From Heterodontus francisci (lineage: Eukaryota): 64,000 bases of DNA. Position 1 is the stretch's first letter. Each line of letters opens with the position of its first letter. Where the stretch lies: assembly GCF_036365525.1 (NCBI RefSeq), contig NC_090400.1, positions 61,290,209 through 61,354,208 on the forward strand. Reading direction: 5' to 3'. The notes under the pieces were generated by a model. It worked only from the letters and a program-made list of their open reading frames with translations. It was not told the origin of the DNA and did not search any database. Below are positions 622 to 63,805 of this stretch, one piece after another. Position numbers and translations under genes: made by a program.

Positions 622-1750
622 ATATCAGCTGGCATGGGGGCCAGAGTACCAGCTGGCATGGGGGGGGCAGGATATCAGCTGGCATGGGGGGGGCCAGGAT
701 ATAAGCTGGCATGGGGGCCAGGATATAAGCTGGCATGGGGGCCAGGATATCAGCTGGCATGGGGGCCAGGATATCAGCTGGCATGGGGGGGCCAGGATAT
801 CAGCTGGCATGGGGGGGCCAGGATATCAGCTGGCATGGGGGGGGCCAGGATATCAGCTGGCATGGGGGCCAGAGTACCAGCTGGCATGAGGGCCAGAGTA
901 CCAGCTGGCATGAGGGCCAGAGTACCAGCTGGCATGAGGGCCAGAGTACCAGCTGGCATGGGGGCCAGAGTACCAGCTGGCATGGGGGCCAGAGTACCAG
1001 CTGGCATGGGGGCCAGAGTACCAGCTGGCATGGGGGCCAGAGTACCAGCTGGCATGGGGGCCAGGGTACCAGCTGGCATGGGGGCCAGGGTACCAGCTGG
1101 CATGGGGGCCAGAGTACCAGCTGGCATGGGGGCCAGAGTACCAGCTGGCATGGGGGCCAGAGTACCAGCTGGCATGGGGGCCAGAGTACCAGCTGGCATG
1201 GGGGCCAGAGTACCAGCTAGCATGGGGGCCAGAGTACCAGCTGGCATGGGGGCCAGAGTACCAGCTGGCATGGGGGCCAGAGTACCAGCTGGCATGGGGG
1301 CCAGGGTACCAGCTGGCATGGGGGCCAGGGTATCAGCTGGCATGGGGGGCCAAGGTATCAGCTGGCATGGGGGGCCAGGGTATCAGCTGGCATGGGGGGC
1401 CAGAGTACTAGCTGGCATGGGGGGCCAGAGTACTAGCTGGCATGGGGGGCCAGGATATCAGCTGGCATGGGGGGCCAGGATATCAGCTGGCATGGGGGCC
1501 AGGGTATCAGCTGGCATGGGGGCCAGAGTACCAGCTGGCATGGGGGGGGCCAGGATACCAGCTGGCATGGGGGCCAGAGTACCAGCTGGCATGGGGAGCC
1601 AGGATATCAGCTGGCATGGGGGCCAGGATATCAGCTGGCATGGGGGGCCAGGATATCAGCTGGCATGGGGGCCAGAGTACCAGCTAGCCTGGGGGCAAGA
1701 GTACCAGCTGGCATGGGGGGGCCAGAGTACCCGCTGGCATGGGGGCCAGG
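622..1750. repeat. 24-bp minisatellite, about 46 copies, consensus CCAGCTGGCATGGGGGCCAGAGTA (variant ...GGATAT)
   Basis: Direct tandem repetition is visible. It gives (MGARVPAG)n in the ORF track. G-run length varies in the flanking copies. Confidence 0.97.
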
Positions 1751-1861
1751 AAGGGTAGTTGAGTAGTAATGGGCCAAGAGAGGAGGAGGTGGGGCTCATG
1801 GACTATATGAGCATGAAGGGAGAAAGGAGAGAAACTAGAGAAGGACGTAGGCTTTCTTCAA

Positions 1862-3935: not shown

Positions 3936-4534
3936 CTGCAAATCAGAAATAGAAAAAATACAGGAAGTGCACCGCAGATCTGTCAGCATCTGCAAAACAA
4001 AAATTGGTCTTCGTATTTTGGCTGGGGCAATTCTATTTAAAATAAAGTTTAGTCTTTTGAAGGATTCTCAGTACAGCCCTGAGACATCAGTCCCATGCCA
4101 AGAACAGGTTGTGCATGCACAGAGATTGTCTGCGCCATAACATTGCCACATATTACTGGACTGCACCTGTTCTTCCTTCAGAAACACAGCAACTGTTTCA
4201 TGGAAAGTGTTGCAAATAGAAGCGATATTTGGAAACTAAAACCTTTTGAAATTATTGTTTTTTAAATTGCATTCAAATGGTAGAGGTTAAATATCAAGCA
4301 TTGAAGGTCCTTACCTGACTGCTCTATTACTTCTAAGTAATGAATATTCATATTCTGCAAATTAGAGAATGGAAGAGTCACGAAACATTTCTTAACTTGC
4401 TTCTCAAAGCTATTGTGAGATGTTGCGCTGAGGCCCAACTGCCTATTCAAGTGGATGTTAAAAATTGCATTTAAAAAAGGGAGTTCTCCCAGTGTCCTGC
4501 CAACTTTTAACCCTGAACCAACATTGCTAAGAAC

Positions 4535-4721
4535 GGTGGAGAGAGAAGCAGAGTTAACGTTTCAGATCAGTGACTTTTCTTCAGTTCTGAAGAAGGGTCA
4601 CTGACCTGAAACATTAACTCTGCTTCTCTCTCCACAGATGCTGCCAGACCTGCTGAGTACTTCCAGCATTTCTTGTTTTTATTTCAGATTTCCAGCATCC
4701 GCAGTATTTTGCTTTTATATT
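4535..4721 (+). mobile_element. Penelope-like (PLE)-derived short non-autonomous element with inverted 5' duplication; 12-bp TSD
   Basis: Flanked by ATTGCTAAGAAC at 4523-4534 and 4722-4733. Imperfect palindrome spans 4536-4635. Body is homologous to 16794-16927. Confidence 0.8.
4583..4619 (+). ncRNA. Minimal type I hammerhead ribozyme-like motif
   Basis: AGTT-CTGAAGA-A-GGGTC(ACT)GACCT-GAAAC-ATT-AACT: CUGANGA core, stem II, GAAA, and stem I AGTT/AACT. Activity not shown. Confidence 0.6.
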
Positions 4722-6039
4722 ATTGCTAAGAACAGATTAGCTAGTCATTCATCTCATCATGTGATGGGCAGCAGTTTCCTACAGCAACAACAATGGCCGC
4801 GCTTCAAAGGTAATGCAATTACTTCAAAGTAATCAAATGTGAAACATGTTGGGATGACATGAGGTGCGTTAGAAATGCAAGTTCTTTTTTAGTAGGGATT
4901 CTTTGATTTGTTGTAGTAGAGAATAGCCCTGTTAATAAAGCTAATTGGTGAATAATCGAGTGCCCAAATTTTCCCCTTCCACATCACAGAGATGAAGGCA
5001 AGTACAATCCAATAGGCACAAAATCTGTTCCATGTGGTGCATAAAGTAGCTGCTGCCAAAAGCCTGTATTTACATATCATGACATCAGAGGTCACGTGTA
5101 CAGCAAGCCAAAGTGTTCAAAAGTATTTATCCAAACAAAATCGATTTAATCTCAATTCATGTCTCCGGTAAGATGTTGTCTCATGAAAATTCTGGTGGAT
5201 GATAGAGAAGGCAGGTGATTGGAGTGTAGGTAGTGCAGGTTCATTATCCTCCTTCCTTTTGATATATTGCTGTTGAACAGGCAGGATTCTGGAAGATATT
5301 GTTTTTTGGCTCAGCCTGACTTGGGAAGAAGCTCATAAGCAAACAGATGTCCAGGTCTAACCAAATGCTGTGTCTGAGAAGAAGTTCCCAGGCTTAGCAG
5401 CGTTTGAAATTTATTATATATTGTGCACTGAGTCAGATTTTCCATTCACTGGAGTGCTAGCTGCTGATGAGTCTGTGGTTTATCCGTTTGGTTTTATACA
5501 TGTACCCTGTCTGCCATTCGGTGAAATATGACTGAAAGCAGATTAAGCTGCTATGCAAATATTCAGCACTGAAAGCAGATTAATCTGCTGCATGGGTTTA
5601 ATCGTGCAGTAATACGAATTGTGAAGTCAAGAGGGTTGTGAATGAACAGGAGTTTGAAATTTTTTTAAATCATGTTAAAGGGGTGGGGGGAGAATGTTTG
5701 TAATTTTTCCATGTTGAGTTGCCAACTCCAACATCCTTTGTGGAAGCAAATGGATGTTAAAGGTGCATTTCTTTTTTGATGGATTTGATTACTGGGATAA
5801 GTTAATGTCTGAAAGAAGTAATGCCATTATTGGATTAACTGGCACTCCATGTTCACATAACTTTCCTTGAAATGTTTCTCTTCGAAATTCCATCTCTGAA
5901 ACGGGCACAAATCTGGAGCAATTCAGGGGAGTTGGGGACACAATTCTTCTTGACAAGTAAAAGTCGAGTAACAGACTGGCCTGGGGGCATATTGGGTGAG
6001 ACAGCAGCCTCCCACAACAAACAATCACAGATTACAACC

Positions 6040-6765
6040 TTGGGGAGATGTCCAGCACTATGCTGAACTGTGGGAGATGTCCAGCACTGTGCTGAACGGT
6101 GAGAGGTGCCCAACCTTTTGCTGACCAGTGGGAGATGTCCAGCACTGTGCTGAACTGTGGGAGATGTCCAGCACTGTGCTGAACGGTGGGAGGTGCCCAG
6201 CACTGTGCTGAACGGTGGGAGGTGCCCAGCACTGTGCTGAACGGTGGGAGGTGCCCAGCACTGTGCTGACCGGTGGGAGGTGCCCAGCACTGTGCTGAAC
6301 GGTGGGAGGTGCCCAGCACTGTGCTGACCGGTGGGAGGTGCCCAGCACTGTGCTGACCGGTGGGAGGTGCCCAGCACTGTGCTGACCGGTGGGAGGTGCC
6401 CAGCACTGTGCTGACCGGTGGGAGGTGCCCAGCACTGTGCTGACCGGTGGGAGGTGCCCAGCACTGTGCTGACCGGTGGGAGGTGCCCAGCACTGTGCTG
6501 ACCGGTGGGAGGTGCCCAGCACTGTGCTGAACGGTGGGAGGTGCCCAGCACTGTGCTGACCGGTGGGAGGTGCCCAGCACTGTGCTGACCGGTGGGAGGT
6601 GCCCAGCACTGTGCTGACCGGTGGGAGGTGCCCAGCACTGTGCTGACCGGTGGGAGGTGCCCAGCACTGTGCTGACCGGTGGGAGGTGCCCAGCACTGTG
6701 CTGACCGGTGGGAGGTGCCCAGCACTGTGCTGAACGGTGGGAGGTGCCCAGCACTGTGCTGACCG
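6040..6765. repeat. 29-bp minisatellite, about 25 copies, consensus CGGTGGGAGGTGCCCAGCACTGTGCTGAC
   Basis: Direct tandem repetition. Leftmost copies are diverged (ggagatgtccagc); central copies are near-identical. Confidence 0.97.
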
Positions 6766-6767
6766 CT

Positions 6768-6932
6768 GGGCGAATTCCAAAGATTCACAACGCTCTGAGT
6801 AAAGAAATTTCTCCTCATCTCTGTCCTAAGTGGCTTCCCCCTTATTTTGAAATTGTGTCCCCTGGTATGAGACTCCCCAACCAGGGGAAACATCTTAGCT
6901 GCATCTACCCTGTCTATCCCTTTAAATATTTT
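6768..6932 (-). mobile_element. CR1 ORF2 C-terminal fragment
   Basis: MFPLVGESHTRGHNFKIRGKPLRTEMRRNFFTQSVVNLWNS. Confidence 0.9.
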
Positions 6933-7710: not shown

Positions 7711-8580
7711 CAACAGCAACTTGCATTTATAGAGCACCTTTAATGTCACAAAACATCCCAAGGCTCTTCGCTGGAGAGTTATCAAAGAAAATATGGCATT
7801 GTGCCACAGAAGGAGACAATGGGGCAGATGACCAAAACCTTGGTCAAAGAGAGAGGTTTTATGGAACATCTTAAAGGTGGAGAGGTTTAGGGAAGGAATT
7901 CCAGAGCTTAAGGTCATCGGCAGCTGAAGGCACAGCTGCCAATGGTGGCGAGATTAAAATCGGAGGTGTGTAAGAGGCTAGAACTGGAGCAGTATAGAGA
8001 TTTCAGAGGATTGTAGGGCTGGAGGAGGCCAAAAAGCTGTGGAGGGGCAAAGCTGTGGAGGGATTTGAAACCAAGGGTAAGAGTTTTAAAATCGAGGCGT
8101 TATTCAACTGGGAGCCAATGTAGGTCAGCGAACAAAGGTGATTGGTGAACGGACTTATTTATTTAGAGATAGAGCACTGAAACAGGCCCTTCGGCCCACC
8201 GAGTCTGTGCCGACCATCAACCACCCATTTATACTAATTTGACACTAATCCCATATTCCTACCACATACCCACCTGTCCCTATATTCCCCCACCACCTAC
8301 CTATACTAGGGGCAATTTATAATAGCCAATTTACCTACCAACCTGCAAGTCTTTTGGCTGTGGGAGGAAACGGGAGCACCCGGCGAAAATCCACGCAGAC
8401 ACAGGGAGAACTTGCAAACTCCACACAGGCAGTACCCAGAACTGAACCCGGGTCGCTGGAGCTGTGAGGCTGCGGTGCTAACCACTGCGCCACTGTGCCG
8501 CCCTGGTGCGATTTAGGACACGGGCAGCAGAGTTTTGGATGAGCTTAAGTTTTTGGAAGATAGAATATGGGAGGCTGACC
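7711..8580 (-). mobile_element. L2 LINE 3' end, split by a V-SINE
   Basis: Tail caacagcaacttgcatttatagagcacctttaatg; body matches 21350-21900 and the reverse complement of 41530-41937. Confidence 0.8.
8156..8503 (-). mobile_element. Full-length tRNA-derived V-SINE (HE1-like)
   Basis: Reverse complement of gggcggcacagtggcgcagtggttagcac...gggttc (A/B boxes), V-domain gggttt..ccgggtgctccggtttcctccc, and a CR1-like 3' tail ending in (taaa)n. Confidence 0.9.
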
Positions 8581-9810: not shown

Positions 9811-10573
9811 AAAACAAAGTCTGGTGATATTCTATAGGCATTGCTGGCATTTACAATTGAAACACAAAGACACTCCTATTTGATCCTTTGCCCAGCTGAG
9901 CAGCTAATACAATAGAAACCCCAGGCTTAGTGTTCATGCAGTGGGTTTCATTCAGTTCTGGGTCAGAGCTCTATGCTGTCTGATACTGAAAAGACAATTG
10001 GGTTGTTTTCCTGATGAATTGAATATTTATTACTGTAATTGACAGGTTATATCTTTGCTGGAATAATAGTGTGCTCTTACCAGTGCTACTGACTCTCAGA
10101 AGAGGAGAGAAGAGAAAGGTTACGTATAGGAATTTGGCTGTGGTGTAAAATATATATTAAAATAACACAAATCATGAAACTGCAGGTAATCCCTAATGCA
10201 CATTACCTGCAAAGTCCGAGTGAATAATAATACAATCCTTTGATCATGTGCCTCAATTTTATACACTCAATCCACTATCAATTTTCTAATAATGCCATGG
10301 AGAGAAAAGAAACTCACATTTTTATAGTATTTTATGACATAGCTATTAAATCTGGTACTAATATTTTTGCCTTTCAGTCTTCAAACCTTTTTCATAATTT
10401 CTCCCTTCAGGGGGAAATGTAGACTTTGTTGGGTGGGTTTGCTGGCATGTTTCATGGTGTCACCTTGATTCCATGCATTAATTAAATGGTTGTAGCTCAC
10501 TGTAATGCTTGTAGTGACAGCAGCTACCAACCACACAGTAACTGAAGTTAATCATCTCTTTTTCACTTTCTTG

Positions 10574-13500
10574 CCCTCCTCCTCTCCTCGCTCTCCTCCT
10601 TCTCCTCTCCCCGCCCTCCTTCTCCTCTCCCCGCCCTCCTCCTCCTCTCCTCGCCCTCCTCCTTCTCCTCTCCCCGCCCTCCTCCTCCTCTCCCCCGCCC
10701 TCCTCCTCCTCTCCCCGCTCTCCTCCTCCTCTCCCCGCTCTCCTCCTCCTCTCCCCGCCCTCCTCCTCCTCTCCCCGCCCTCCTCCTCCTCTCCCCGCCC
10801 TCCTCCTCCTCCTCTCCCCGCCCTCCTCCCTCCTCCTCCTCTCCCCGCCCTCCTCCCTCCTCCTCCTCTCCCCGCCCTCCTCCTCCTCTCCCCGCCCTCC
10901 TCCTCCTCTCCCGACCATCCTCCCTCCTCCTCCTCTCCCGACCCTCCTCCCTCCTCCTCCTCTCCCCGCCCTCCCCCTCCTCCTCCCCCGCCCTCCCCCT
11001 CCTCCTCCTCTCCCCGCTCTCCTCCTCCCCCCGCCCTCCCCCCCTCCTCCTCCCCCCGCCCTCCCCCCCTCCTCCTCTCCCCGCCCTCCCCCCCTCCTCC
11101 TCTCCCCGCCCTCCCCCCCTCCTCCTCTCCCCGCCCTCCCCCCCTCCTCCTCTCCCCGCCCTCCCCCCCCTCCTCCTCTCCCCGCCCTCCCCCCCTCCTC
11201 CTCTCCCCGCCCTCCCCCTCCTCCTCCTCTCCCCGCCCTCCCCCTCCTCCTCCTCTCCCCGCCCTCCCCCTCCTCCTCCTCTCCCCGCCCTCCCCCTCCT
11301 CCCCCCGCCATCCCCTCCTNNNNNNNNNNNNNNNNNNNNNNNNNNNNNNNNNNNNNNNNNNNNNNNNNNNNNNNNNNNNNNNNNNNNNNNNNNNNNNNNN
11401 NNNNNNNNNNNNNNNNNNNNNNNNNNNNNNNNNNNNNNNNNNNNNNNNNNNNNNNNNNNNNNNNNNNNNNNNNNNNNNNNNNNNNNNNNNNNNNNNNNNN
11501 NCCTCCTCTCCCCGCCCGCCCCCTCCTCCTCCTCTCCCCGCCCTCCCCCTCCTCCTCCTCTCCCCGCCCTCCCCCTCCTCCTCCTCTCCCCGCCCTCCCA
11601 CTCCTCCTCCTCTCCCCGCCCTCCCCCTCCTCCTCCTCTCCCCGCCCTCCCCCTCCTCCTCCTCTCCCCGCCCTCCCCCTCCTCCTCCTCTCCCCGCCCT
11701 CCCCCTCCTCCTCTCCCCGCCCTCCCCCTNNNNNNNNNNNNNNNNNNNNNNNNNNNNNNNNNNNNNNNNNNNNNNNNNNNNNNNNNNNNNNNNNNNNNNN
11801 NNNNNNNNNNNNNNNNNNNNNNNNNNNNNNNNNNNNNNNNNNNNNNNNNNNNNNNNNNNNNNNNNNNNNNNNNNNNNNNNNNNNNNNNNNNNNNNNNNNN
11901 NNNNNNNNNNNNNNNNNNNNNNNNNNNNNNNNNNNNNNNNNNNNNNNNNNNNNNNNNNNNNNNCCTCCTCTCCCCGCCCTCCCCCTTCTCCTCCTCTCCC
12001 CGCCCTCCCCCTTCTCCTCCTCTCCCCGCCCTCCCCCTTCTCCTCCTCTCCCCGCCCTCCCCCTTCTCCTCCTCTCCCCGCCCTCCCCCTTCTCCTCCTC
12101 TCCCCGCCCTCCCCCTTCTCCTCCTCTCCCCGCCCTCCCCCTTCTCCTCCTCTCCCCGCCCTCCCCCTTCTCCTCCTCTCCCCGCCCTCCCCCTCCTCCT
12201 CCTCTCCCCGCCCTCCCCCTCCTCCTCCTCTCCCCGCCCCCCTCCTCCTCCTCTCCCCGCCCTCCCCCTCCTCCTCCTCTCCCCGCCCTCCCCCTCCTCC
12301 TCCTCCCCTCCCCCTTCTCCTCCTCTCCCCGCCCTCCCCCTCCTCTCCCCGCCCTCCCCCTCCTCCTCCTCCCCTCCCCCTCCTCCTCCTCCCCTCCCCC
12401 TCCTCCTCCTCTCCCCGCCCTCCCCCTCCTCCTCCACCCCCCGCCCTCCCCCTCCTCCTCCTCCCCCCGCCCTCCCCCTCCTCCTCCCGCCCTCCCCCTC
12501 CTCCTCCCGCCCTCCCCTTCCTCCTCCTCTCCCCGCCCTCCTCCTCCTCCCCCCCGCCCTACCCCTCCCCCTCCTTCTCCCCCCCGCCATACCCCTCCTC
12601 CTCCTCCCCCCGCCCTCCCCCTCCTCCTCCTCCCCCCGCCCTCCCCCTCCTCCTCCTCCCCCCGCCCTACCCCTCCCCCTCCTCATCCTCCCCGCCCTCC
12701 TCCTCCCCCCGCCCTCCCTCTCCTCCTCCTCCCGCCGCCCTCCCCCTCATCCTCCCCCTCCTCCCCCCGCCCTCCCCCTCCTACCCCCGCCCTCCCCTCC
12801 TCCCCCTGCTCCCCCCGCCCCTCCTCCTCCCNNNNNNNNNNNNNNNNNNNNNNNNNNNNNNNNNNNNNNNNNNNNNNNNNNNNNNNNNNNNNNNNNNNNN
12901 NNNNNNNNNNNNNNNNNNNNNNNNNNNNNNNNNNNNNNNNNNNNNNNNNNNNNNNNNNNNNNNNNNNNNNNNNNNNNNNNNNNNNNNNNNNNNNNNNNNN
13001 NNNNNNNNNNNNNNNNNNNNNNNNNNNNNNNNNNNNNNNNNNNNNNNNNNNNNNNNNNNNNNNNNNNNNNNNNNNNNNNNNNNNNNNNNNNNNNNNNNNN
13101 NNNNNNNNNNNNNNNNNNNNNNNNNNNNNNNNNNNNNNNNNNNNNNNNNNNNNNNNNNNNNNNNNNNNNNNNNNNNNNNNNNNNNNNNNNNNNNNNNNNN
13201 NNTCCTCCTCCTCCTCCCCCCGCCCTCCTCCTCCTCCCCCCGCCCTCCTCCTCCTCCTCCCCCCGCCCTCACCCTCCTCCTCCCCCCCGCCATACCCCTC
13301 CTCCTCCTCCCCCCGCCCTCCCCCTCCTCCTCCTCCCCCCGCCCTACCCCTCCCCCTCCTCATCCTCCCCGCTCTCCTCCTCCCCCCGCCCTCCCTCTCC
13401 TCCTCCTCCCGCCGCCCTCCCCCTCGTCCTCCCCCTCCCGCCGCCCTCCCCCTCGTCCTCCCCCTCGTCCTCCCCCTCCTCCCCCCGCCCTCCCCCTCCT

Positions 13501-14864
13501 CCCCCCGCCCTCCCCCTCCTCCCCCCGCCCTCCCCCTCCTCCCCCTGCTCCCCCCGCCCTCNNNNNNNNNNNNNNNNNNNNNNNNNNNNNNNNNNNNNNN
13601 NNNNNNNNNNNNNNNNNNNNNNNNNNNNNNNNNNNNNNNNNNNNNNNNNNNNNNNNNNNNNNNNNNNNNNNNNNNNNNNNNNNNNNNNNNNNNNNNNNNN
13701 NNNNNNNNNNNNNNNNNNNNNNNNNNNNNNNNNNNNNNNNNNNNNNNNNNNNNNNNNNNNNNNNNNNNNNNNNNNNNNNNNNNNNNNNNNNNNNNNNNNN
13801 NNNNNNNNNNNNNNNNNNNNNNNNNNNNNNNNNNNNNNNNNNNNNNNNNNNNNNNNNNNNNNNNNNNNNNNNNNNNNNNNNNNNNNNNNNNNNNNNNNNN
13901 NNNNNNNNNNNNNNNNNNNNNNNNNNNNNNNNNNNNNNNNNNNNNNNNNNNNNNNNNNNNNNNNNNNNNNNNNNNNNNNNNNNNNNNNNNNNNNNNNNNN
14001 NNNNNNNNNNNNNNNNNNNNNNNNNNNNNNNNNNNNNNNNNNNNNNNNNNNNNNNNNNNNNNNNNNNCCTCCCCCCGCCCTCCTCCTCCCCCCGCCCTCC
14101 TCCTCCCCCCGCCCTCACCCTCCTCCTCCCCCCGCCCTCACCCTCCCCCTCCCCCTCCCCCTCCTCCTCCCCCCGCCCTCCCCCTCCCCCCGCCCTCCCC
14201 CTCCTCCTCCCCCCGCCCTCCCCCTNNNNNNNNNNNNNNNNNNNNNNNNNNNNNNNNNNNNNNNNNNNNNNNNNNNNNNNNNNNNNNNNNNNNNNNNNNN
14301 NNNNNNNNNNNNNNNNNNNNNNNNNNNNNNNNNNNNNNNNNNNNNNNNNNNNNNNNNNNNNNNNNNNNNNNNNNNNNNNNNNNNNNNNNNNNNNNNNNNN
14401 NNNNNNNNNNNNNNNNNNNNNNNNNNNNNNNNNNNNNNNNNNNNNNNNNNNNNNNNNNNNNNNNNNNNNNNNNNNNNNNNNNNNNCCTCCTATCCCCGCC
14501 CTCCCCCGCCCTCCTCCTATCCCCGCCCTCCCCCGCCCTCCTCCCCCCCTCCCCATCCACCTCATCCTCCTCCTCCTCTCCCCGCCTCCTCCACCCCCCT
14601 CCCCCCCCCCGCCTCCTCCTCCCCCTCCCCCGCCCTCCCCCTCCTCCTCTCCCCGCCCTCCTCCCCCTCCTCCTCCTCTCCACGCCTCCCCCCGCCCTCC
14701 CCCTCCTCCTCCTCTCCCCACCCTCCCCCTCCTCCTCCTCCCCCCATCCTCCCCCCTCCTCCTCATCCTCCCCCCGCCCTCCCCCTCCCCCTCCTCCTCC
14801 CCCCATCCTCCCCCTCCTCCTCATCCTCCCCCCGCCCTCCCCCTCCCCCTCCTCCTCCTCCTCC
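10574..14864. repeat. C-rich polypyrimidine tandem array (17-26-bp units, e.g. CCTCCTCCTCCTCTCCCCGCCCTCCC) with five N runs
   Basis: Directly visible. N runs at 11320-11501, 11730-11963, 12832-13202, 13562-14067 and 14226-14485. Confidence 0.95.
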
Positions 14865-14869
14865 AGTAA

Positions 14870-14965
14870 TCTGGCCCAGTGATATATGTCCAACTCAGGT
14901 TGGTGTATGACTTTGAGGGGAACTTGGAGGTGTTGGTGTTCCCACTACATTGCTGCTCTTGTCTT
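14870..14965 (-). mobile_element. CR1-group 3' fragment (family of 8620-9810)
   Basis: Reverse-complement similarity to 9535-9630. Confidence 0.6.
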
Positions 14966-15060
14966 TGTAAAGGCCTTGAAACAAGAATGTAGTATTGAAG
15001 TAAGTTGCTATACTGGATCCTATTGCTGGTACGCTAGTGCTGGAGGTAATGGATGTTGAT

Positions 15061-15185
15061 AAAAGCAAATTTCTGTGGATTTTGGAAATCTAAAATAAAA
15101 ACAGAAAATGCTGGAAATGCTCAGCAGGTCTGGCAGCATCTGTGGAGAGAGAAACAGTTAACAATTTAGGTCTGTGACCTTTCAT
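15061..15185 (-). mobile_element. PLE-derived short element (same family as 4535-4721), older copy
   Basis: aaaagcaaat...gaaaatgctggaaatgctcagcaggtctggcagcatctgtggagagagaaacagttaac is the reverse complement of the family body. Confidence 0.8.
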
Positions 15186-16793
15186 GTGGATGTTGAAACT
15201 AATGACAGAACACTGTCACCAATTAAACAGGCATGAGATTCTTTGTTTATTTTTGCACTTTCAGCTGTCTCATGTCAAATATTAGAAAAGCAAAACTACT
15301 GAAGGTAGTGATGATGGTAGAATTCAAAGGAATAGATTTTGAACTTGCAGCTTGGGTATAAAGCTGGCATTGTGGATCAGCTGCCTGTTACAGAAACAAA
15401 CTGATTATATTTCCATTGATATTTATAACAGGTGGCCAGTCTGCAATGCCATGTTTACACCTGGGCAGCAAGTTGAAAAATTAACCCCAAACCTTTAAAG
15501 TGGCTTGAATTTTATTGGGTTCCTCTCGATCTATGAGGAACCGAGGTGTTGCAGTGCAATTTGGAAAAAAAGATTCTAGCAGCAAGCAAATTTGCTAATT
15601 ATTTCAGAAGCTTTAATCCTTTCTGAGCTGCTGCAGATAATATTGTTGATGCTTATGTTAGGCTGTGGTGCAGCACTTTTCATAGGCCCGAAAGCTTTGA
15701 CTGAAGCCAGCTGTCTAGTGTGGCTTTGAGCTGCTAGCAATGTGCAGCGAGCTGCAGCATAGACATCATCAGTGACAGCTTCTGGCAGTCCTCGACCCAC
15801 AAAGGGGCCCAGCCAGTTCCGCTAACAGGGACATATAAATCTAATTAGCTGCTGAATGGTGATAGCATCAAATGAAAAGGCGTATATACAGCACTGGCAA
15901 CAGTTCAGCAGCCCAATTCTCTCAAACAGGAAAATGGGCACTGTGCCAAAATCAATAGCGAGGTAGTTTGTATTTCTCCGCAGCTGCCTTTAGATGTGAA
16001 TGAAGCTGTTAAAGGCTTTCCTTCAATTCACATGGAGGACAGGTTTGGTGTTCATTTATGTCATTTTCTATATAGTAAACTTCTCTATCTGCACCAATTC
16101 AAGTTCAACATTAGAGCAACAGTGCAGATAACTTCACATTCCAGTTTACCCTTTCAGCTTATGCAAACATGTGTCTGTCTGTGCAGATATGCTCCTTCTG
16201 AGTCAGTAGCTGACTGTGCAGTGTTCTTAAATAAAATCAGAAACTACTGCAAATGCATAGGAACTCAGTCAGCATGCATAGAAAGAAATGGCAGCTTAAT
16301 GTTTCAGTGGGACCCACACCTGAACCAGTCAGCTTTCTTTTCTCTACAGTGCTGACTGAGTGGCTGTATGTTCCCAGTTTTTCTATTTGTTTGTGGAGTT
16401 TTCTTGTGTTCCAAGCTCTTTCTTGATGGTCAAAGGCTCCAAGAGAACTGAAGTAGAATTCTGTGCACCCCACCCCCGAGTTCTTCCTTCTCACTGCATC
16501 TGGGAACTGCTGTTAGAGATTCCTTAGAGGATGAGACTGGAAATTAATAATGGGAAACAAGGAAATGGCAAAACTTTGAACGAGTATTTTGAATCTGTCT
16601 TCAGAGTAGAAGACACAAAAAGCATCCCAAGAATAGCAGAAAATCAAGAGGAATAAGGGAGGGAGGAACTTAAAATAATCACTATCACTAGAGAAGAAGT
16701 ACTAGGAAAACTAATGGGACTAAAGGCTGACAAGTCCCCTGGACCTAATGGCCTGCATCCTGGGGTCTTAAAAGAAGTAGCTGCAGAGATAGT

Positions 16794-16927
16794 TCCGAAG
16801 AAGGGTCACTGACCCGAAACGTTAACTCTGCTTCTCTTTCCACAGATGCTGCCAGACCTGCTGAGTGGTTCCAGCATTTCTTGTTTTTATTTCAGATTTC
16901 CAGCATCCGCAATATTTTGCTTTTATT
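16794..16927 (+). mobile_element. 134-bp PLE-derived element with hammerhead-like motif at its 5' end; 8-bp TSD
   Basis: GAGATAGT at 16786-16793 and 16928-16935. Removing the insert restores CR1 EVAAEIVDAL. Motif CCGAAGA-A-GGGTC(ACT)GACCC-GAAAC-GTT-AACT at 16795-16827. Confidence 0.85.
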
Positions 16928-20880: not shown

Positions 20881-21349
20881 TAAAATTGTCTGAAGAGCAA
20901 TGCATGAAAGGAAGCAGTATTATAAAAACTATTGGTAGAGATTGGTATTATTTAAATAATAGGAACTGTTGAAAGCCACTTTGGAGTAAAGCACAGGACT
21001 GGTCGCACTCGTTGATTGATGAATAATGAGGTGCTAAAGTGGCCTATCTGGATGAACCATAACAGATTTAGCATTTCCAGGGGTGGAAATGGGTGAACCA
21101 TTGATCTCCCCTTTAAAGTGCATGTCCGGTTTCTGGGCTGACGAGCTATAGATTTAACACAGCACCCTCCACAGTGGTGACAAGGGTCATTGATTAGCTA
21201 GTCAGTATTTAACAAATCAGCGACGCTGAGTCTGTAATAAAAGCAGAAAATGATGTACAGCAGTCCCTTCAGCTTCTGAAATGAGACAAGACAGGTTAAT
21301 GTTTATAGGGGAAACTGTTGCTCAGAAATGGAAATTGATAAGCAAGTCC

Positions 21350-24240: not shown

Positions 24241-24956
24241 TGATGTAGTGACAATAATAGAAACATAGCTTACAAATGGTGCTTAATATTTAACGATATA
24301 AAGTGTTCAGAAACAATAGGGAAGGAAAAAAGGTGAGTGGCATTGATTAAGGAAGACATTGTAATGTTGGAAAAAGAGAAGGTCCTTGAGGGAGCAAAGA
24401 TAGAATCCATTTGGTTAGAGTTGAGAAGCAAAAAGGGGATGATCATGCTAATGAGGGTATTCTTTAGGCTTCCAAATAGTGAGGGAGATAGAGGAACAAA
24501 TTTGCAGGGAAATCACAGAGATGTGCAAGAACTATAGAGTGGTGATACTGGAGCACTTTAGTTCCCCAAATATTGATTGGAATAATGTTAGAGTAAAGAG
24601 TAAGGAGGGGTCGGAATTTCTGAAATGTGGTCAGGAGAACTTCCTTGTCCAGTATGTTCTCGCCCCAATGAGGAAAGAGGCATTGCTGGATCTGGTGCTT
24701 GGGAATGAGGTGGGCCAAGTGTCTGTGGGGGAGCATTTGGGTAAGAGTGATCATTATATCATAAGGTTTAGATTAATAATGGAGAAGAGCAAGGAACAAT
24801 CGAAAGTAGAACTTCTGAATTGGGAGAGGGCTAATTCCAATGGGATAAATGGGATCTAGCCAGGATAAAATGGAACCAAAGATTAGCAAGAAAAACCGGT
24901 AACGGAATGGATGACCTTTCAGGAGGAGATGTTTCAGGTACAGACTAGATACATTA

Positions 24957-25310
24957 GGGCGGCACAGTGGCGCAGTGGTTAGCACACCGCAGCCTCACAG
25001 CTCCAGCGACCCGGGTTCAATTCTGGGTACTGCCTGTGTGGAGTTTGCAAGTTCTCCCTGTGTCTGCGTGGGTTTCCTCCGGGTGCTCCGGTTTCCTCCC
25101 ACATGCCAAAAGACTTGCAGGTTGGTAGGTAAATTGGCCATTATAAAAATTGCCCCTAGTATAGGTAGGTGGTAGGGAAATATAGGGACAGGTGGGGATG
25201 TGGTAGGAATATGGGTTTAGTGTAGGATTAGTATAAATGGGTGGTTGATGGTCAGCATAGACTCGGGCCGAAGGGCTTGTTTCAGTGCTGTATCTCTAAA
25301 CTAAACTAAA
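24957..25310 (+). mobile_element. Full-length V-SINE (HE1-like)
   Basis: gggcggcacagtggcgcagtggttagcac...; (ctaaa)n tail; possible ACATT TSD. Confidence 0.9.
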
Positions 25311-25641
25311 CATTCAAACAAGGGCAGAAAGTCAGGGAACAAAGCCAGGACTCCTTGTATGATGAGGGAGAAAGAGAATATGATGAGGCAAAAAAAGAGA
25401 TGTGTATGATGCCTGGCAGGTGAATTCTTCAAGCGAGCACCAGGCCAAATACAATAAGTTGAGAGGGAAAGTGAAGAGGAAAATAAGACTAGAATGGCAG
25501 TTAAGAAAAACAGGAACCCAAAAATCTTCCACCAGCAAGTAAATAACAAATGGGTCGTAAGAGGCTGAGTGAGTCCCATTAGGGACACATGGGGTGATAT
25601 ATGCTTAAAGGGTCAGGGCAAGGCTAGAATACTTAATGAAT

Positions 25642-43875: not shown

Positions 43876-46508
43876 TAACTGCTGTCTGTTTTAAAATGTA
43901 ACTGTTGGATCTCATTGGCCCCTGCTAACCACATGACTGAGTATAGCCCATGGCTATCATCACATAGTTAACAGAAAGGAATGTTGCATTCAGACATACA
44001 AAAAAAGTTTAGTCCATAGATTTATGTAATGTAGACATTGTGGATGCAAAATAGCAAACATCAGAGGTAAAAAAGCACCATTTATTATATGAAACTGTGT
44101 CTCCCCAGAGGCTGCAATTTGGAAACAGGAGTGAAATGGATTTGGGGCAGTTGAATGTTTAGAGGCCAGTCTCTGGTGTTGCAGCTGATACTATAAGTTG
44201 TAAAATACCTCCTAATAAATTTTCTATGATCTCTATTGTGGCTATCTGGTCACAGTAGGGCTTCGAGAACTCTTAGCTCAGCTCCATTGGAAGTAGAATC
44301 ATGGATCTCAACTGCTTTCAGTGTTTAGTGTACCCACATAATTAGGAGTAAACATTCACCCACATGTCCAATTCTCTGTCTCTACTGGAACTATAATAGT
44401 GACAGTAGACCACTGACCAGGAAGGGCTTCATGAGCCACGTGTGACTCTGATTTCATAGCTTGAGGCTTTTGTTGAATAAACAGCATCCTGATGTGTTCT
44501 ATACCATTGACATTTTATAATTTCCTTTTTAAAGAAAAGCTAAATTGAGTGACGTTTTGCTTCTTCTTTCTCTCCATTTAAAAAGTTGCAAAATTTCTCA
44601 TTCCTGTATTTATAGCTCTTTGTGCTTTCTCACATAGGCGTCTTGAGTTCTAATGAATGACGTCTTTTAAAGTTTAAACAAGAACCTGTTTTACTTAAAT
44701 GACATTACCGAAAATTGAAGACATCTCAGAAAGGCCACACCTACTGACGTCAAACTCATTTAGGTAATAAAACCCAATGTCACCAGGGGCTGTCCTTGCA
44801 TGGGAACTATCTGTCCCTCAGAACAATAACACAGAAGGATGTTGTCATGGAAACTCAGGGCATCTGACTAAACGAACAGAGAGATAAGTAGTAAAGGCAG
44901 TTGCACAATGAAATGGAGAAAAAAGTGAATAATGCAACGCTGTTAGCTGCTGCTGTTTAGTTCCCTGTCGAGGCCTTTCACTTCTTTTTTTTAATGTATC
45001 CATTTTTTAAAATGTATCACTTTTATTTCTTTGTGATGCTGGGAGCAGCACAGTATAGGAAGCTGCAACTACTGAGAATAGTAATAGCAAACCTACCCTT
45101 GACTCTAAACAGGAACTAAAACTGAAGAAAAGAAGAACCCTTGAGCCAAACCAGCTAACCCCTTGAACTAAACAGGTAATAGCATCAAGAGGGGCTTTAA
45201 TTTCCTCTGATACATCACTGGTTAATAGGTTTGCATTTACTTTCTTTACATTCAGTATCAGCACAGTTTATTTTTAAATGGAGGAATTTTATGCATGCAG
45301 CTTAACTGGTGCAGTACCATAGAAAATGAAACCCTCAGGAGTTTTGGCTCAGTCTTTCACCTCAGCAGATAGCCTGAATCGAAATTTGAGTTAACCTCAT
45401 GCACTTGACTTGGCAGGTAATAACCCAGCCAATGTATCATTAGGAGTTTTTCTGTTTGAGTAGGTGGGATGACTTTGGTTGCAAACCAACTATAAGGAGC
45501 TTGGTAAAATGTGTACATTCCTCTTCCACGCTATTGTGCAGAATGGTGCTTACCAGCTGACGCTGTCATCTAATTCCCTTGATAATGCTCAGTTTCAGGA
45601 CCATCATTGTGTTCCATATCTCGTTCCAGTTGCACATTTCCTGTGGATGCTCAGACCATGTTCCATATGTGGTCTCTGATCTATTTCTCCAACTTTGCAG
45701 CTTAACCTTGTTTTAAGGCTTCATTAATGTGAGCAGGATCACTGAGGTCACAGACAGTTTGGAATAAGGCAAGCAGAACTTTCAGTTCCATCAGCAAGCA
45801 GATCACCTGAGCAAACTCTTGAGTGTTCACATTGATCCATACTCTGTCAAGAACAGATGGGACTCTGATATTTTTTAGTCCAAGGTTTATGAGATTTGTC
45901 AGCTGAGGATTCATGTCAAATATTGGTTTTAGTGAGAAACAAAACTTAAGCCAGTCAGGGTGCTTTTTCTCGATCCTGCACAGTTCTCCCAATTCCATTG
46001 TGATTGTGACTTGGAATTTTGGAAAGAAAAAAATCTACCAGTAATTTTAAGATGCCATGAATAACTGAAGAGATTTGAAACAAATTAAAATTAATGAAGA
46101 GGGCTTACGAGGAGCAGAAGAATCAAGCCTTTTCCGCCATTCAGTGAGATTATGGCTGATCTGTGACCTAACTCCATATATCTGCTTTTGCCCCATATCC
46201 CTTAATACCTTTGGATAACAAAAATCCCTATCCCTATGAGCCCTTATTTGCACAGCAAAGCTAGAATACTTAATGAGTACTTTGTATCACTATTTACTAA
46301 GGAAGAGGATGCTGACAAAATATCAGTGGAAGTGGAGATGATATAGGTGATGGATGGGGTGAAAAATAATAGGAAGGATGTCCTGGAAAGGCTGTCTTTT
46401 TTTTTTAAAGAGAGGATAAGTCGCCTGTCCTTGCATCCCAGGTTGCTGAAGGAAGCGGGAGTGGAGATAGGGAAAGGGCTTGCCATAATCTTCCAATCTT
46501 CTCTGGAA

Positions 46509-46845
46509 GTGGTTAGCACCGCAGCCTCACAACTCCAGCGACCCGGGTTCAATTCTGGGTACTGCCTGTGTGGAGTTTGCAAGTTCTCCCTGTGTCTGCA
46601 TGGGTTTTCTCCAGGTGCTCCGCTTTCCTCCCACAGCCAAAAGACTTGCAGGTTGGTAGGTAAATTGGCCATTATAAATTGCCCCTAGTATAGGTAGGTG
46701 GTAGGGAAATATAGGGACAGGTGGGGATGTGCTAGGAATATGGGATTAGTGTAGGATTAGTATAAATGGGTGGTTGATGGTCGGCACAGACTCGGTGGGC
46801 CGAAGGGCCTGTTTCAGTGCTGTATCTCTAAATAAATAAAAAATA
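46509..46845 (+). mobile_element. V-SINE (HE1-like), slightly 5'-truncated
   Basis: Colinear with 24957-25310; A-rich tail. Confidence 0.9.
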
Positions 46846-46883
46846 AATTTTAAAAAATAAATACTGGAGAGGTACCAGAAGTA

Positions 46884-47205
46884 CGGCGCAGTAGTTAGCA
46901 CCGCAGCCTCACAGCTCCAGCGACCCGGGTTCGGTTCTGGGTACTGCCTGTGCGGAGTTTGCAAGTTCTCTCTGTGACCGCGTGGGTTTCCGCCGGGTGC
47001 TCCCGTTTCCTCCCATCGCCAAAGACTTGCAGGTTGATAGATAGATTGGCCATTGTAAATTGCCTCTAGTGTCGGTAGGTGGTAGGAGAATGGTGGGGAT
47101 GTGGTAGGGAATATGGGATTAATGTAGGATTAGTATAAATGGGTGGTTGTTGGTCGGCACAGACTCGGTGGGCTGAAGGGTCTGTTTCAGTGCTGTATCT
47201 TTCTA
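46884..47205 (+). mobile_element. V-SINE (variant subfamily)
   Basis: ggcgcagtagttagcaccgcagcc...; diagnostic differences (gtgaccgcgtggg, ggagaatggtgggg). Confidence 0.9.
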
Positions 47206-63165: not shown

Positions 63166-63721
63166 ATGACATGCCCTGATACAAATCCTGACATAGAAGA
63201 GTACAGGTAAAATAAGGTAAAATTATACAAAGTGAATGATGAAACCTGCTTGTTACTTCCTGGTTTGCCATCTGTGAGAATTCTTTAATGTGATTGGCTG
63301 CTTACCCTGCTTGATGACATCACTGTTGCTGGACGCCAGAGTTCCCCTGTAGCTGGCACACAAACAAAATTAATATCCGGAAAGGTAAAATACATACCAC
63401 AGAGCTTGGTAGATTTTTATAGCCAGTTTTCTTCAAGGTCAGTAGTAAGAGCCATCACTTCACTCCTGACAGCAAAATGTGGCCCCATACTTAACTGCTT
63501 TCTTCCCTAAACAGCAATTAATTAATGTCTGTACTACATTAGAATTTTCCAAACTATTAAGAGTAACATTTACTATAATTCAGAATGTGTAATTCAATAT
63601 AATCCTTAGACTGTTAAAATAATTGTCCTTAGAGTCTGCAATTAGAAAGCTCAGGGTTTTATACATTTTTTGGAATATTATTTATTTCTCCAGCATTTTG
63701 TATATAGCATTTTAAAAGAAA

Positions 63722-63805
63722 TAAAAAGGAAAAACTTCAAATATTGGGAATCTGAAATAACAACAGAAAATACTGGAAATATAGGGCAGGCCAGTCAGCA
63801 TTTGT
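63722..63805 (-). mobile_element. Degenerate PLE-derived short element fragment
   Basis: gaatctgaaataacaacagaaaatactggaaat...caggccagtcagcatttgt resembles 15061-15145. Confidence 0.6.

What the first reader, a model, noticed from the sequence alone, without database searches (positions are those of the whole stretch)
4535..4721. TSD-flanked 187-bp element with back-to-back hammerhead-ribozyme-like motifs in a 100-bp palindrome
Seen: a 12-bp TSD (ATTGCTAAGAAC) and a palindrome at 4536-4635 centred on CTTCAG-TT-CTGAAG. The + strand reads AGTT CTGAAGA A GGGTC-ACT-GACCT GAAAC ATT AACT. The - strand reads CTGAAGA A AAGTC-ACT-GATCT GAAAC GTT AACTC. Established: Penelope-like elements carry minimal type I hammerheads (CUGANGA...GAAA, very short palindromic stem III, thought to act as dimers) and often insert with inverted 5' duplications. 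Inference: this is a non-coding, ribozyme-bearing retroelement mobilised in trans by a PLE. Inside an intron, a transcript would fold into a long hairpin that could mask the ribozyme or become an ADAR/Dicer substrate.
Basis: partly seen in the sequence, partly recalled or inferred. Interest (0 to 1): 0.7.

Follow-up and report, generated by a model that had tools for sequence, protein, structure and literature searches.

The report
Mirror-image stub of a Penelope retrotransposon
This 187-base insertion is two back-to-back pieces of the end of a very common Penelope-type jumping gene, likely made in one insertion event from that gene's own uncut RNA; its two ribozyme-like motifs are damaged and likely inactive, so it is an ordinary leftover, useful mainly as one clue to how these elements copy themselves.

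Summary
In detail: a 12-bp TSD, a 49-bp inverted repeat and two hammerhead-like motifs. It is not a separate non-coding element. The + arm is the start of the terminal repeat (pLTR) of an abundant autonomous Penelope-like element (3,296-bp unit, 924-codon RT + GIY-YIG frame, Neptune/Nematis-type linker); it is 126/129 identical to an ORF-linked copy. The genome holds 49,055 exact hammerhead-core hits and 1,888 head-to-head palindromes with varied centres and ends, so each was made independently. Short and ORF-linked copies share every subfamily, and two variants that first looked short-only were each 16 of 30 long. Neither motif here is intact: the + copy has lost its palindromic stem III, the - copy lacks stem I, they lie on opposite strands, and a -97.7 kcal/mol hairpin would bury both. 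Best model: two cDNAs primed from staggered nicks ran to the RNA's likely 5' end and were joined. Inverted pLTRs, tail and TSD are published PLE features, and this scan noted such stubs many times on other DNA.

The parts
4523..4534 (+). Left target-site duplication, 12 bp
   Evidence: Exact repeat; family TSDs mode 14 bp, range 8-18 in 51 of 65 palindromes
4536..4584 (-). Inverted arm: pLTR positions 5-53 (position 1 = window 4583 on the + arm), ending inside the element rather than at either usual end site; 4535 is one unmatched base
4552..4584 (-). Truncated, decayed hammerhead motif: no stem I 5' strand, A-C mismatch in stem II
   Evidence: 16 of 22 dimer pairs possible, MFE -0.1 kcal/mol
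4582..4589 (.). Head-to-head junction: CAG overlap between the two arms around a 2-nt centre
   Evidence: Sequence; 428 genome hits within 2 mismatches of this centre, some sites counted on both strands
4583..4721 (+). Direct arm: pLTR positions 1-139 of the older (CTGAAGA) subfamily of the autonomous PLE
   Evidence: 126/129 identical to L103, whose upstream matches the PLE protein at 93% over 362 aa
4583..4619 (+). Minimal type I hammerhead motif; predicted cut between 4615 and 4616; A at 4613 (family G) breaks the palindromic stem III
   Evidence: Folds as stem I + stem II alone, -5.9 kcal/mol; 20 of 22 dimer pairs; G at this place in 271 of 286 copies
4683..4721 (+). About 35-39-nt 'tail' between end site A (position ~100) and end site B (~136-139); this copy ends at B
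   Evidence: Bimodal 3' ends in 286 copies
4722..4733 (+). Right target-site duplication, begins with ATT
   Evidence: ATT cut preference reported for anole PAc (PMC11167929)

Best explanation
This is the shortest form of a head-to-head inverted insertion of an autonomous Penelope-like retrotransposon, likely made in one event from that element's own uncut RNA. Shown: both arms are the element's pLTR, the TSD, the two family end sites, the pile-up of 5' ends at the hammerhead's front edge. Inferred steps: the element's endonuclease nicks both target strands about 12 nt apart; one nick primes cDNA at end site B, the other at position ~53; both cDNAs run to the RNA 5' end (likely the transcription start, which fits an initiator consensus recalled from memory); the two cDNA ends are joined through the CAG overlap and filled in. 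The stub then decayed; neither motif is expected to cut, and the palindrome is not itself a mobile unit.
For: Autonomous partner: 3,296-bp tandem unit, 924-codon frame, RVT_1 E=1.2e-5 and GIY-YIG E=0.002, DKG and CX4CxxC motifs; 57 of 65 copies reaching the ORF end have the ORF upstream. Same templates for short and long: HHR-start and long copies in all four subfamilies; G18 lineage 16 long/14 HHR-start of 30; G50 lineage 16 long/13 HHR-start/1 internal of 30. Independent origins: many different centres among the 50 sites listed; of 65 palindromes, ends A+B 37, B+short 18 (this one), A+short 6, A+A 3, other 1, B+B 0; A+B also in 13 of 13 longer inverted insertions with both ends in view (read by hand). 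Both arms from one source: 13 of 57 arm pairs share a rare variant versus 1.9% of random pairs. Two cDNAs rather than fold-back: 9 of 50 listed centres have both arms reaching position 1-2 with a 0-1-nt spacer, which a hairpin primer could hardly give (hand count). Uncut RNA: in 35 copies picked by a downstream motif, 17 start at 1-9 and 1 at the cut site. In vitro PAc nicks and extends both strands, starts at two sites and uses uncut RNA (PMC11167929).
Against: This copy's left end (53) is not a usual start site, and 24 of 65 palindromes have such scattered short ends, which fold-back with early stop explains equally well. Pfam hits are below curated cut-offs. HHR-start copies of one subfamily are more diverged than long ones (1.38 vs 0.50, p=0.01, one of four tests), as secondary mobilisation might give. 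The RNA 5' end is not shown: only contigs were available and a cap-derived extra G was not evident (G in 3 of 9 before AGTT). Full-length copies rarely stop at position 1 (1 of 18), which a simple start-site model does not predict. No empty site was seen.
Confidence: 0.85

Rival explanations
1. Same origin, but the inverted arm was made by fold-back: one cDNA reached the RNA end, its last bases paired on itself, and synthesis ran back about 50 nt before joining the target.
For: The centre of this copy fits a tiny fold-back exactly; short arms end at scattered places 27-76; arms share rare variants; self-priming was proposed for such palindromes (PMC3846280 Discussion).
Against: A 2-nt loop is strained; 9 of 50 centres have no room for a loop; the commonest second end is site A, which is also a free end of non-inverted copies (26 of 61 short, 40 of 98 long).
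Confidence: 0.3
2. One reading: a non-autonomous, SINE- or retrozyme-like unit transcribed from short copies and mobilised in trans.
For: About 42% of copies have a fixed 5' end and two fixed 3' ends; the pLTR may hold an internal promoter as in Penelope (PMC8557442); internal priming would hide carried flanks; non-autonomous PLE derivatives are described.
Against: No short-only lineage survived testing; no tandem short arrays examined or seen here; structure of palindromes not shared between sites; PAc needs RNA downstream of its start sites, which stubs lack.
Confidence: 0.08
3. The palindrome has a host function as a hairpin RNA or regulated ribozyme.
For: Very stable predicted hairpin.
Against: 4 differences in 49 bp, like other old palindromes of the family; one of at least 1,888 such sites; no host gene seen among frames of 250 aa or more.
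Confidence: 0.03

Closest known systems
EN+ Penelope-like element insertions with inverted pLTR, tail and TSD (Adineta Pen2a/Pen3a, PMC3846280; general scheme, PMC8557442)
   Same: Head-to-head inverted pLTR, palindrome at the junction, 30-40-bp tail on one end only, TSD, partial tandems.
   Different: Here both halves stop at the pLTR front edge so no ORF is included; tens of thousands of copies allow end statistics.
Minimal hammerheads of metazoan PLEs (Cervera and de la Pena 2014, PMC4209133)
   Same: 4-bp stem I, extra base between 9 and 10.1, palindromic 15.2-16.2, mostly single dispersed copies from truncated PLEs, pairs on opposite strands.
   Different: Stem II is 5 bp; the older subfamily closes it with G-U or A-U; the young subfamilies carry C at core position 4.
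Poseidon PAc of Anolis (Frangieh et al. 2024, PMC11167929)
   Same: Two end sites about a tail apart, both strands used, ATT at the target, uncut RNA as template.
   Different: PAc is Penelope/Poseidon clade with the hammerhead over the ORF start; here a Zn-finger-like linker is present and the main ATG lies at position 173.
Non-LTR retrozymes (bioRxiv 10.64898/2026.07.22.740005)
   Same: Non-coding, hammerhead-bearing, derived from pLTRs.
   Different: Defined there as head-to-tail tandems with complete hammerheads in consecutive units; this is a single head-to-head insertion with damaged motifs.

Membership tests
EN+ Penelope-like element (parent family) | Single ORF with RT and C-terminal GIY-YIG endonuclease | tested here: met
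   924-codon frame; RVT_1 at 450-575, GIY-YIG at 826-860, both below Pfam cut-offs
EN+ Penelope-like element (parent family) | pLTR from tandem or partial-tandem arrangement, inverted 5' copy, 30-40-bp tail | tested here: met
EN+ Penelope-like element (parent family) | RT groups with PLE/telomerase RTs in a tree | not tested
   No reference PLE proteins in session; PDB search blank
Neptune/Nematis clades | CX2-5CxxC linker before GIY-YIG; DKG motif | tested here: met
   CNRRRCNTC and DKG in the frame; definition in PMC8557442. Neptune versus Nematis not resolved
Minimal type I hammerhead, family level | Core, stems I and II, palindromic stem III able to pair as dimer | tested here: met
   22 of 22 dimer pairs in L086; young core has C at position 4, a change reported to lower activity (PMC3088659)
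Minimal type I hammerhead, family level | Covariation in stems | tested here: inconclusive
   One pair only: G-C 57, G-T 28, A-T 13, A-C 2 of the 100 listed (hand count; Fisher p=1e-4, but one lineage path, not independent events)
Minimal type I hammerhead, this locus | Intact stems I, II and palindromic stem III | tested here: not met
   + copy 20/22, - copy 16/22 dimer pairs; descriptor misses both
Minimal type I hammerhead | Self-cleavage | not testable with these tools
   Needs an assay
Non-LTR retrozyme | At least two consecutive head-to-tail units with complete hammerheads | tested here: not met
   Single head-to-head insertion; definition
Non-autonomous PLE-dependent SINE-like family | Own lineage with diagnostic variants absent from autonomous copies | tested here: not met
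   two variants tested genome-wide on 30 loci each, not a full tree

The most novel reading that the evidence does not exclude
The stubs record a fork in the PLE life cycle: uncut linear RNA can only give 100-136-nt run-off copies ending at the transcription start, while long and tandem copies come from RNA that the hammerheads have cut and closed into a circle, so the ribozyme would be what makes the element autonomous. Multimeric read-through RNA or template jumping could give the same pattern.
Probability: 0.2. Interest if true: 0.6.

Novelty: new member of a known kind. Interest (0 to 1): 0.2.

Why it matters
The locus itself is an ordinary transposon leftover. The family matters modestly: how PLEs make inverted ends and what their hammerheads do are stated as open in PMC8557442 and PMC11167929, and this young, high-copy family with intact ORFs gives countable footprints (A+B end rule, 5' pile-up away from the cut site, first-pass versus second-pass stops) and a substrate for direct tests.

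Tried and rejected
Rfam scan: no hammerhead hit; miRNA matches reflect the hairpin only. DNA search of the genome returned nothing because common words are skipped; patterns used instead. PDB sequence search blank; Atlas unavailable. Bacterial promoter scan not applicable. RNA contigs from guessed-RNA runs: family sequence present, no splice joint among those shown for the putative intron, flanks of this locus not covered; contigs cannot show starts, cuts or expression. Idea that T at position 25 is decay of this copy: rejected, it is the older subfamily's state (85 of 90). Idea that copies begin at the ribozyme cut: rejected (1 of 35). Cap-derived G: inconclusive. One search's G50 classification had an offset bug, corrected; one search crashed after the parts cited. 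Lunse et al. 2017 on dimeric PLE hammerheads was not held and is not used. Searches that found no paper on this family in cartilaginous fish or on the second-pass pattern: (open-licence library only; repeat databases not searched).

Full report
Observation. The 12-bp direct repeat (4523-4534, 4722-4733), the 49-bp inverted arms (4536-4584, 4587-4635; 92%) and both quoted motifs are present. The hairpin is far beyond chance (z -11.8), and so is the TSD in shuffled flank (1 of 20,000). Rfam has no matching hammerhead model at E<=10. Positions below count from window 4583 = 1.

What it belongs to. The window holds two more good copies (16791-16926, 15183-15059) and four weak partial matches. In the 6.0-Gb genome there are 49,055 exact hits to a 26-nt core and 90,606 to a downstream 27-mer, with 0 for reversed controls. 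Upstream of many copies lies a 386-nt UTR and an ORF end. Intact units are 3,296 bp, in tandem, with a 924-codon frame that hits RVT_1 and GIY-YIG below curated cut-offs and has the DKG motif and a CX4CxxC linker, which PMC8557442 (passages) gives for Neptune and Nematis. The + arm here is 126/129 identical to L103, whose upstream matches that protein at 93% over 362 aa. That the host is a shark rests on my recall of the repeat and on earlier notes, not on a call.

Ends. Among 286 copies, 3' ends fall at two sites, ~100 (A) and ~136-140 (B), matching the 30-40-bp tail of PLEs (PMC8557442) and the two RT start sites of anole PAc (PMC11167929, parts 1-2 of 4). In 119 copies from motif-selected loci, 50 begin in the 19 nt around position 1, 31 in the next 372 nt upstream, and 38 reach the ORF. 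In 35 copies picked without requiring the core, 17 begin at 1-9 and 1 at the predicted cut 33/34. So the copied RNA was uncut, as found in vitro for PAc.

The palindrome class. There are 1,888 sites with two exact 13-nt halves head to head within 10 nt. Their centres vary widely. Of 65 examined, 51 have a TSD (mode 14 bp); ends are A+B in 37, B+short in 18 (this copy: 139 and 53), A+short 6, A+A 3, other 1, B+B 0. Longer inverted insertions with junctions in the UTR or ORF show A+B in 13 of 13 with both ends in view (by hand). Two other sites end at 53 but differ in centre and subfamily. Arms share rare variants in 13 of 57 pairs against 1.9% of random pairs. The palindrome is therefore made anew at each insertion, from one source element. 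Inverted pLTRs with junction palindromes and TSDs are described in PMC3846280 (passages and Discussion).

Trans-mobilised element? Short and long copies coexist in all four subfamilies. Three variants seemed confined to short copies; two were tested genome-wide: G18 (896 hits) gave 16 long and 14 short of the first 30, G50 (595 hits) 16 long, 13 short, 1 internal; G54 was not tested separately. Against this, short copies of one subfamily are more diverged (p=0.01, one of four tests). A separate non-autonomous family is unlikely but not excluded.

The ribozyme. The family motif fits the minimal hammerhead of PMC4209133 (parts 1-2 of 4): 22 of 22 dimer pairs. Variation among 100 listed copies includes core position 7, the loop and one stem pair that stays paired in 98 (hand count); this is one lineage path and weak as covariation. 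Young subfamilies have C at core position 4; PMC3088659 (passages) says this change lowers activity in vitro yet suffices in a viroid. At this locus the + motif has lost the palindromic stem III, the - motif lacks stem I and has a broken stem II, and forcing the + fold costs 40 kcal/mol against the long hairpin (-57.8 vs -97.7). Activity here is unlikely; none was measured.

Mechanism. Inferred: staggered nicks, two cDNAs (from B and from ~53), both running to the RNA 5' end, joined by the CAG overlap. Two primers are favoured over fold-back because A is also a free end of non-inverted copies and 9 of 50 centres leave no loop; scattered short ends like this one fit either (about 60 to 30). The 5' pile-up is most simply the transcription start, not shown.

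A lead. I fetched all 21 loci with frames of 920-936 codons in the list plus 3 shorter ones. Eighteen reach position 1 a second time; 17 read on into the upstream unit and 1 stops at 11, against 42% at first pass (p=8e-4; 1 of 10, p about 0.04, without multi-hit loci). A linear RNA starting at position 1 predicts stops. Circular RNA, proposed in PMC4209133, multimeric RNA or template jumping would explain it.

Prior notes. A sequence look-up gave nothing; word and place look-ups gave 156 and 79 notes (8 shown each), read after my analysis, reaching the same by-product, start-site and twin-priming reading on other DNA. They are not independent support. bioRxiv 10.64898/2026.07.22.740005 was read in part (part 1 of 5, passages, Discussion); its supplements are closed and I opened no supplements of any paper, which may list this family.

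Verdict: real, explained, a new member of a known kind; interest 0.2.

Noticed in passing
L086:1810-1985 (unit positions 56-173); donor-like site at window 4657: Putative 96-nt intron from GT at position 75 to a strong acceptor before the main ATG; removing it puts an upstream ATG (position 56) in frame with the ORF. Both end sites lie inside it, so copies derive from unspliced RNA, as known for PLEs. No splice joint seen in contigs.
   Followed up: partly
G000 young subfamilies, e.g. L086:1814 and window 16795: The intact, youngest elements carry C instead of U at hammerhead core position 4 while keeping all stems.
   Followed up: partly
G000 palindromes L183, L184, L190, L192: The two arms often differ A/T at core position 7 (22 of the 100 rows listed) even when they share private variants; slippage or mixed templates, unexplained.
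   Followed up: partly
window 16791-16926 (+) and 15059-15183 (-): Solo stubs of the same family with TSDs of 8-10 bp, both starting near the hammerhead front edge and ending at site B; older fragments at 63720-63805, 3936-3992, 16225-16307, 21231-21304.
   Followed up: partly
G000:C2:92976810-92990128 (L086, L087): Array of four near-identical 3,296-bp units with intact 924-codon frames ending at site B; the family looks recently active.
   Followed up: partly
window 622-1751, 6043-6779, 10500-14900: Minisatellite and GA-rich simple-repeat arrays; the longest frames elsewhere in the window look like decayed LINE reverse transcriptases (by eye).
   Followed up: no
window 8155-8504, 24956-25311, 46508-46846, 46885-47200: A dispersed ~340-bp repeat at 85-95% identity, SINE-like in size, not identified.
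   Followed up: no
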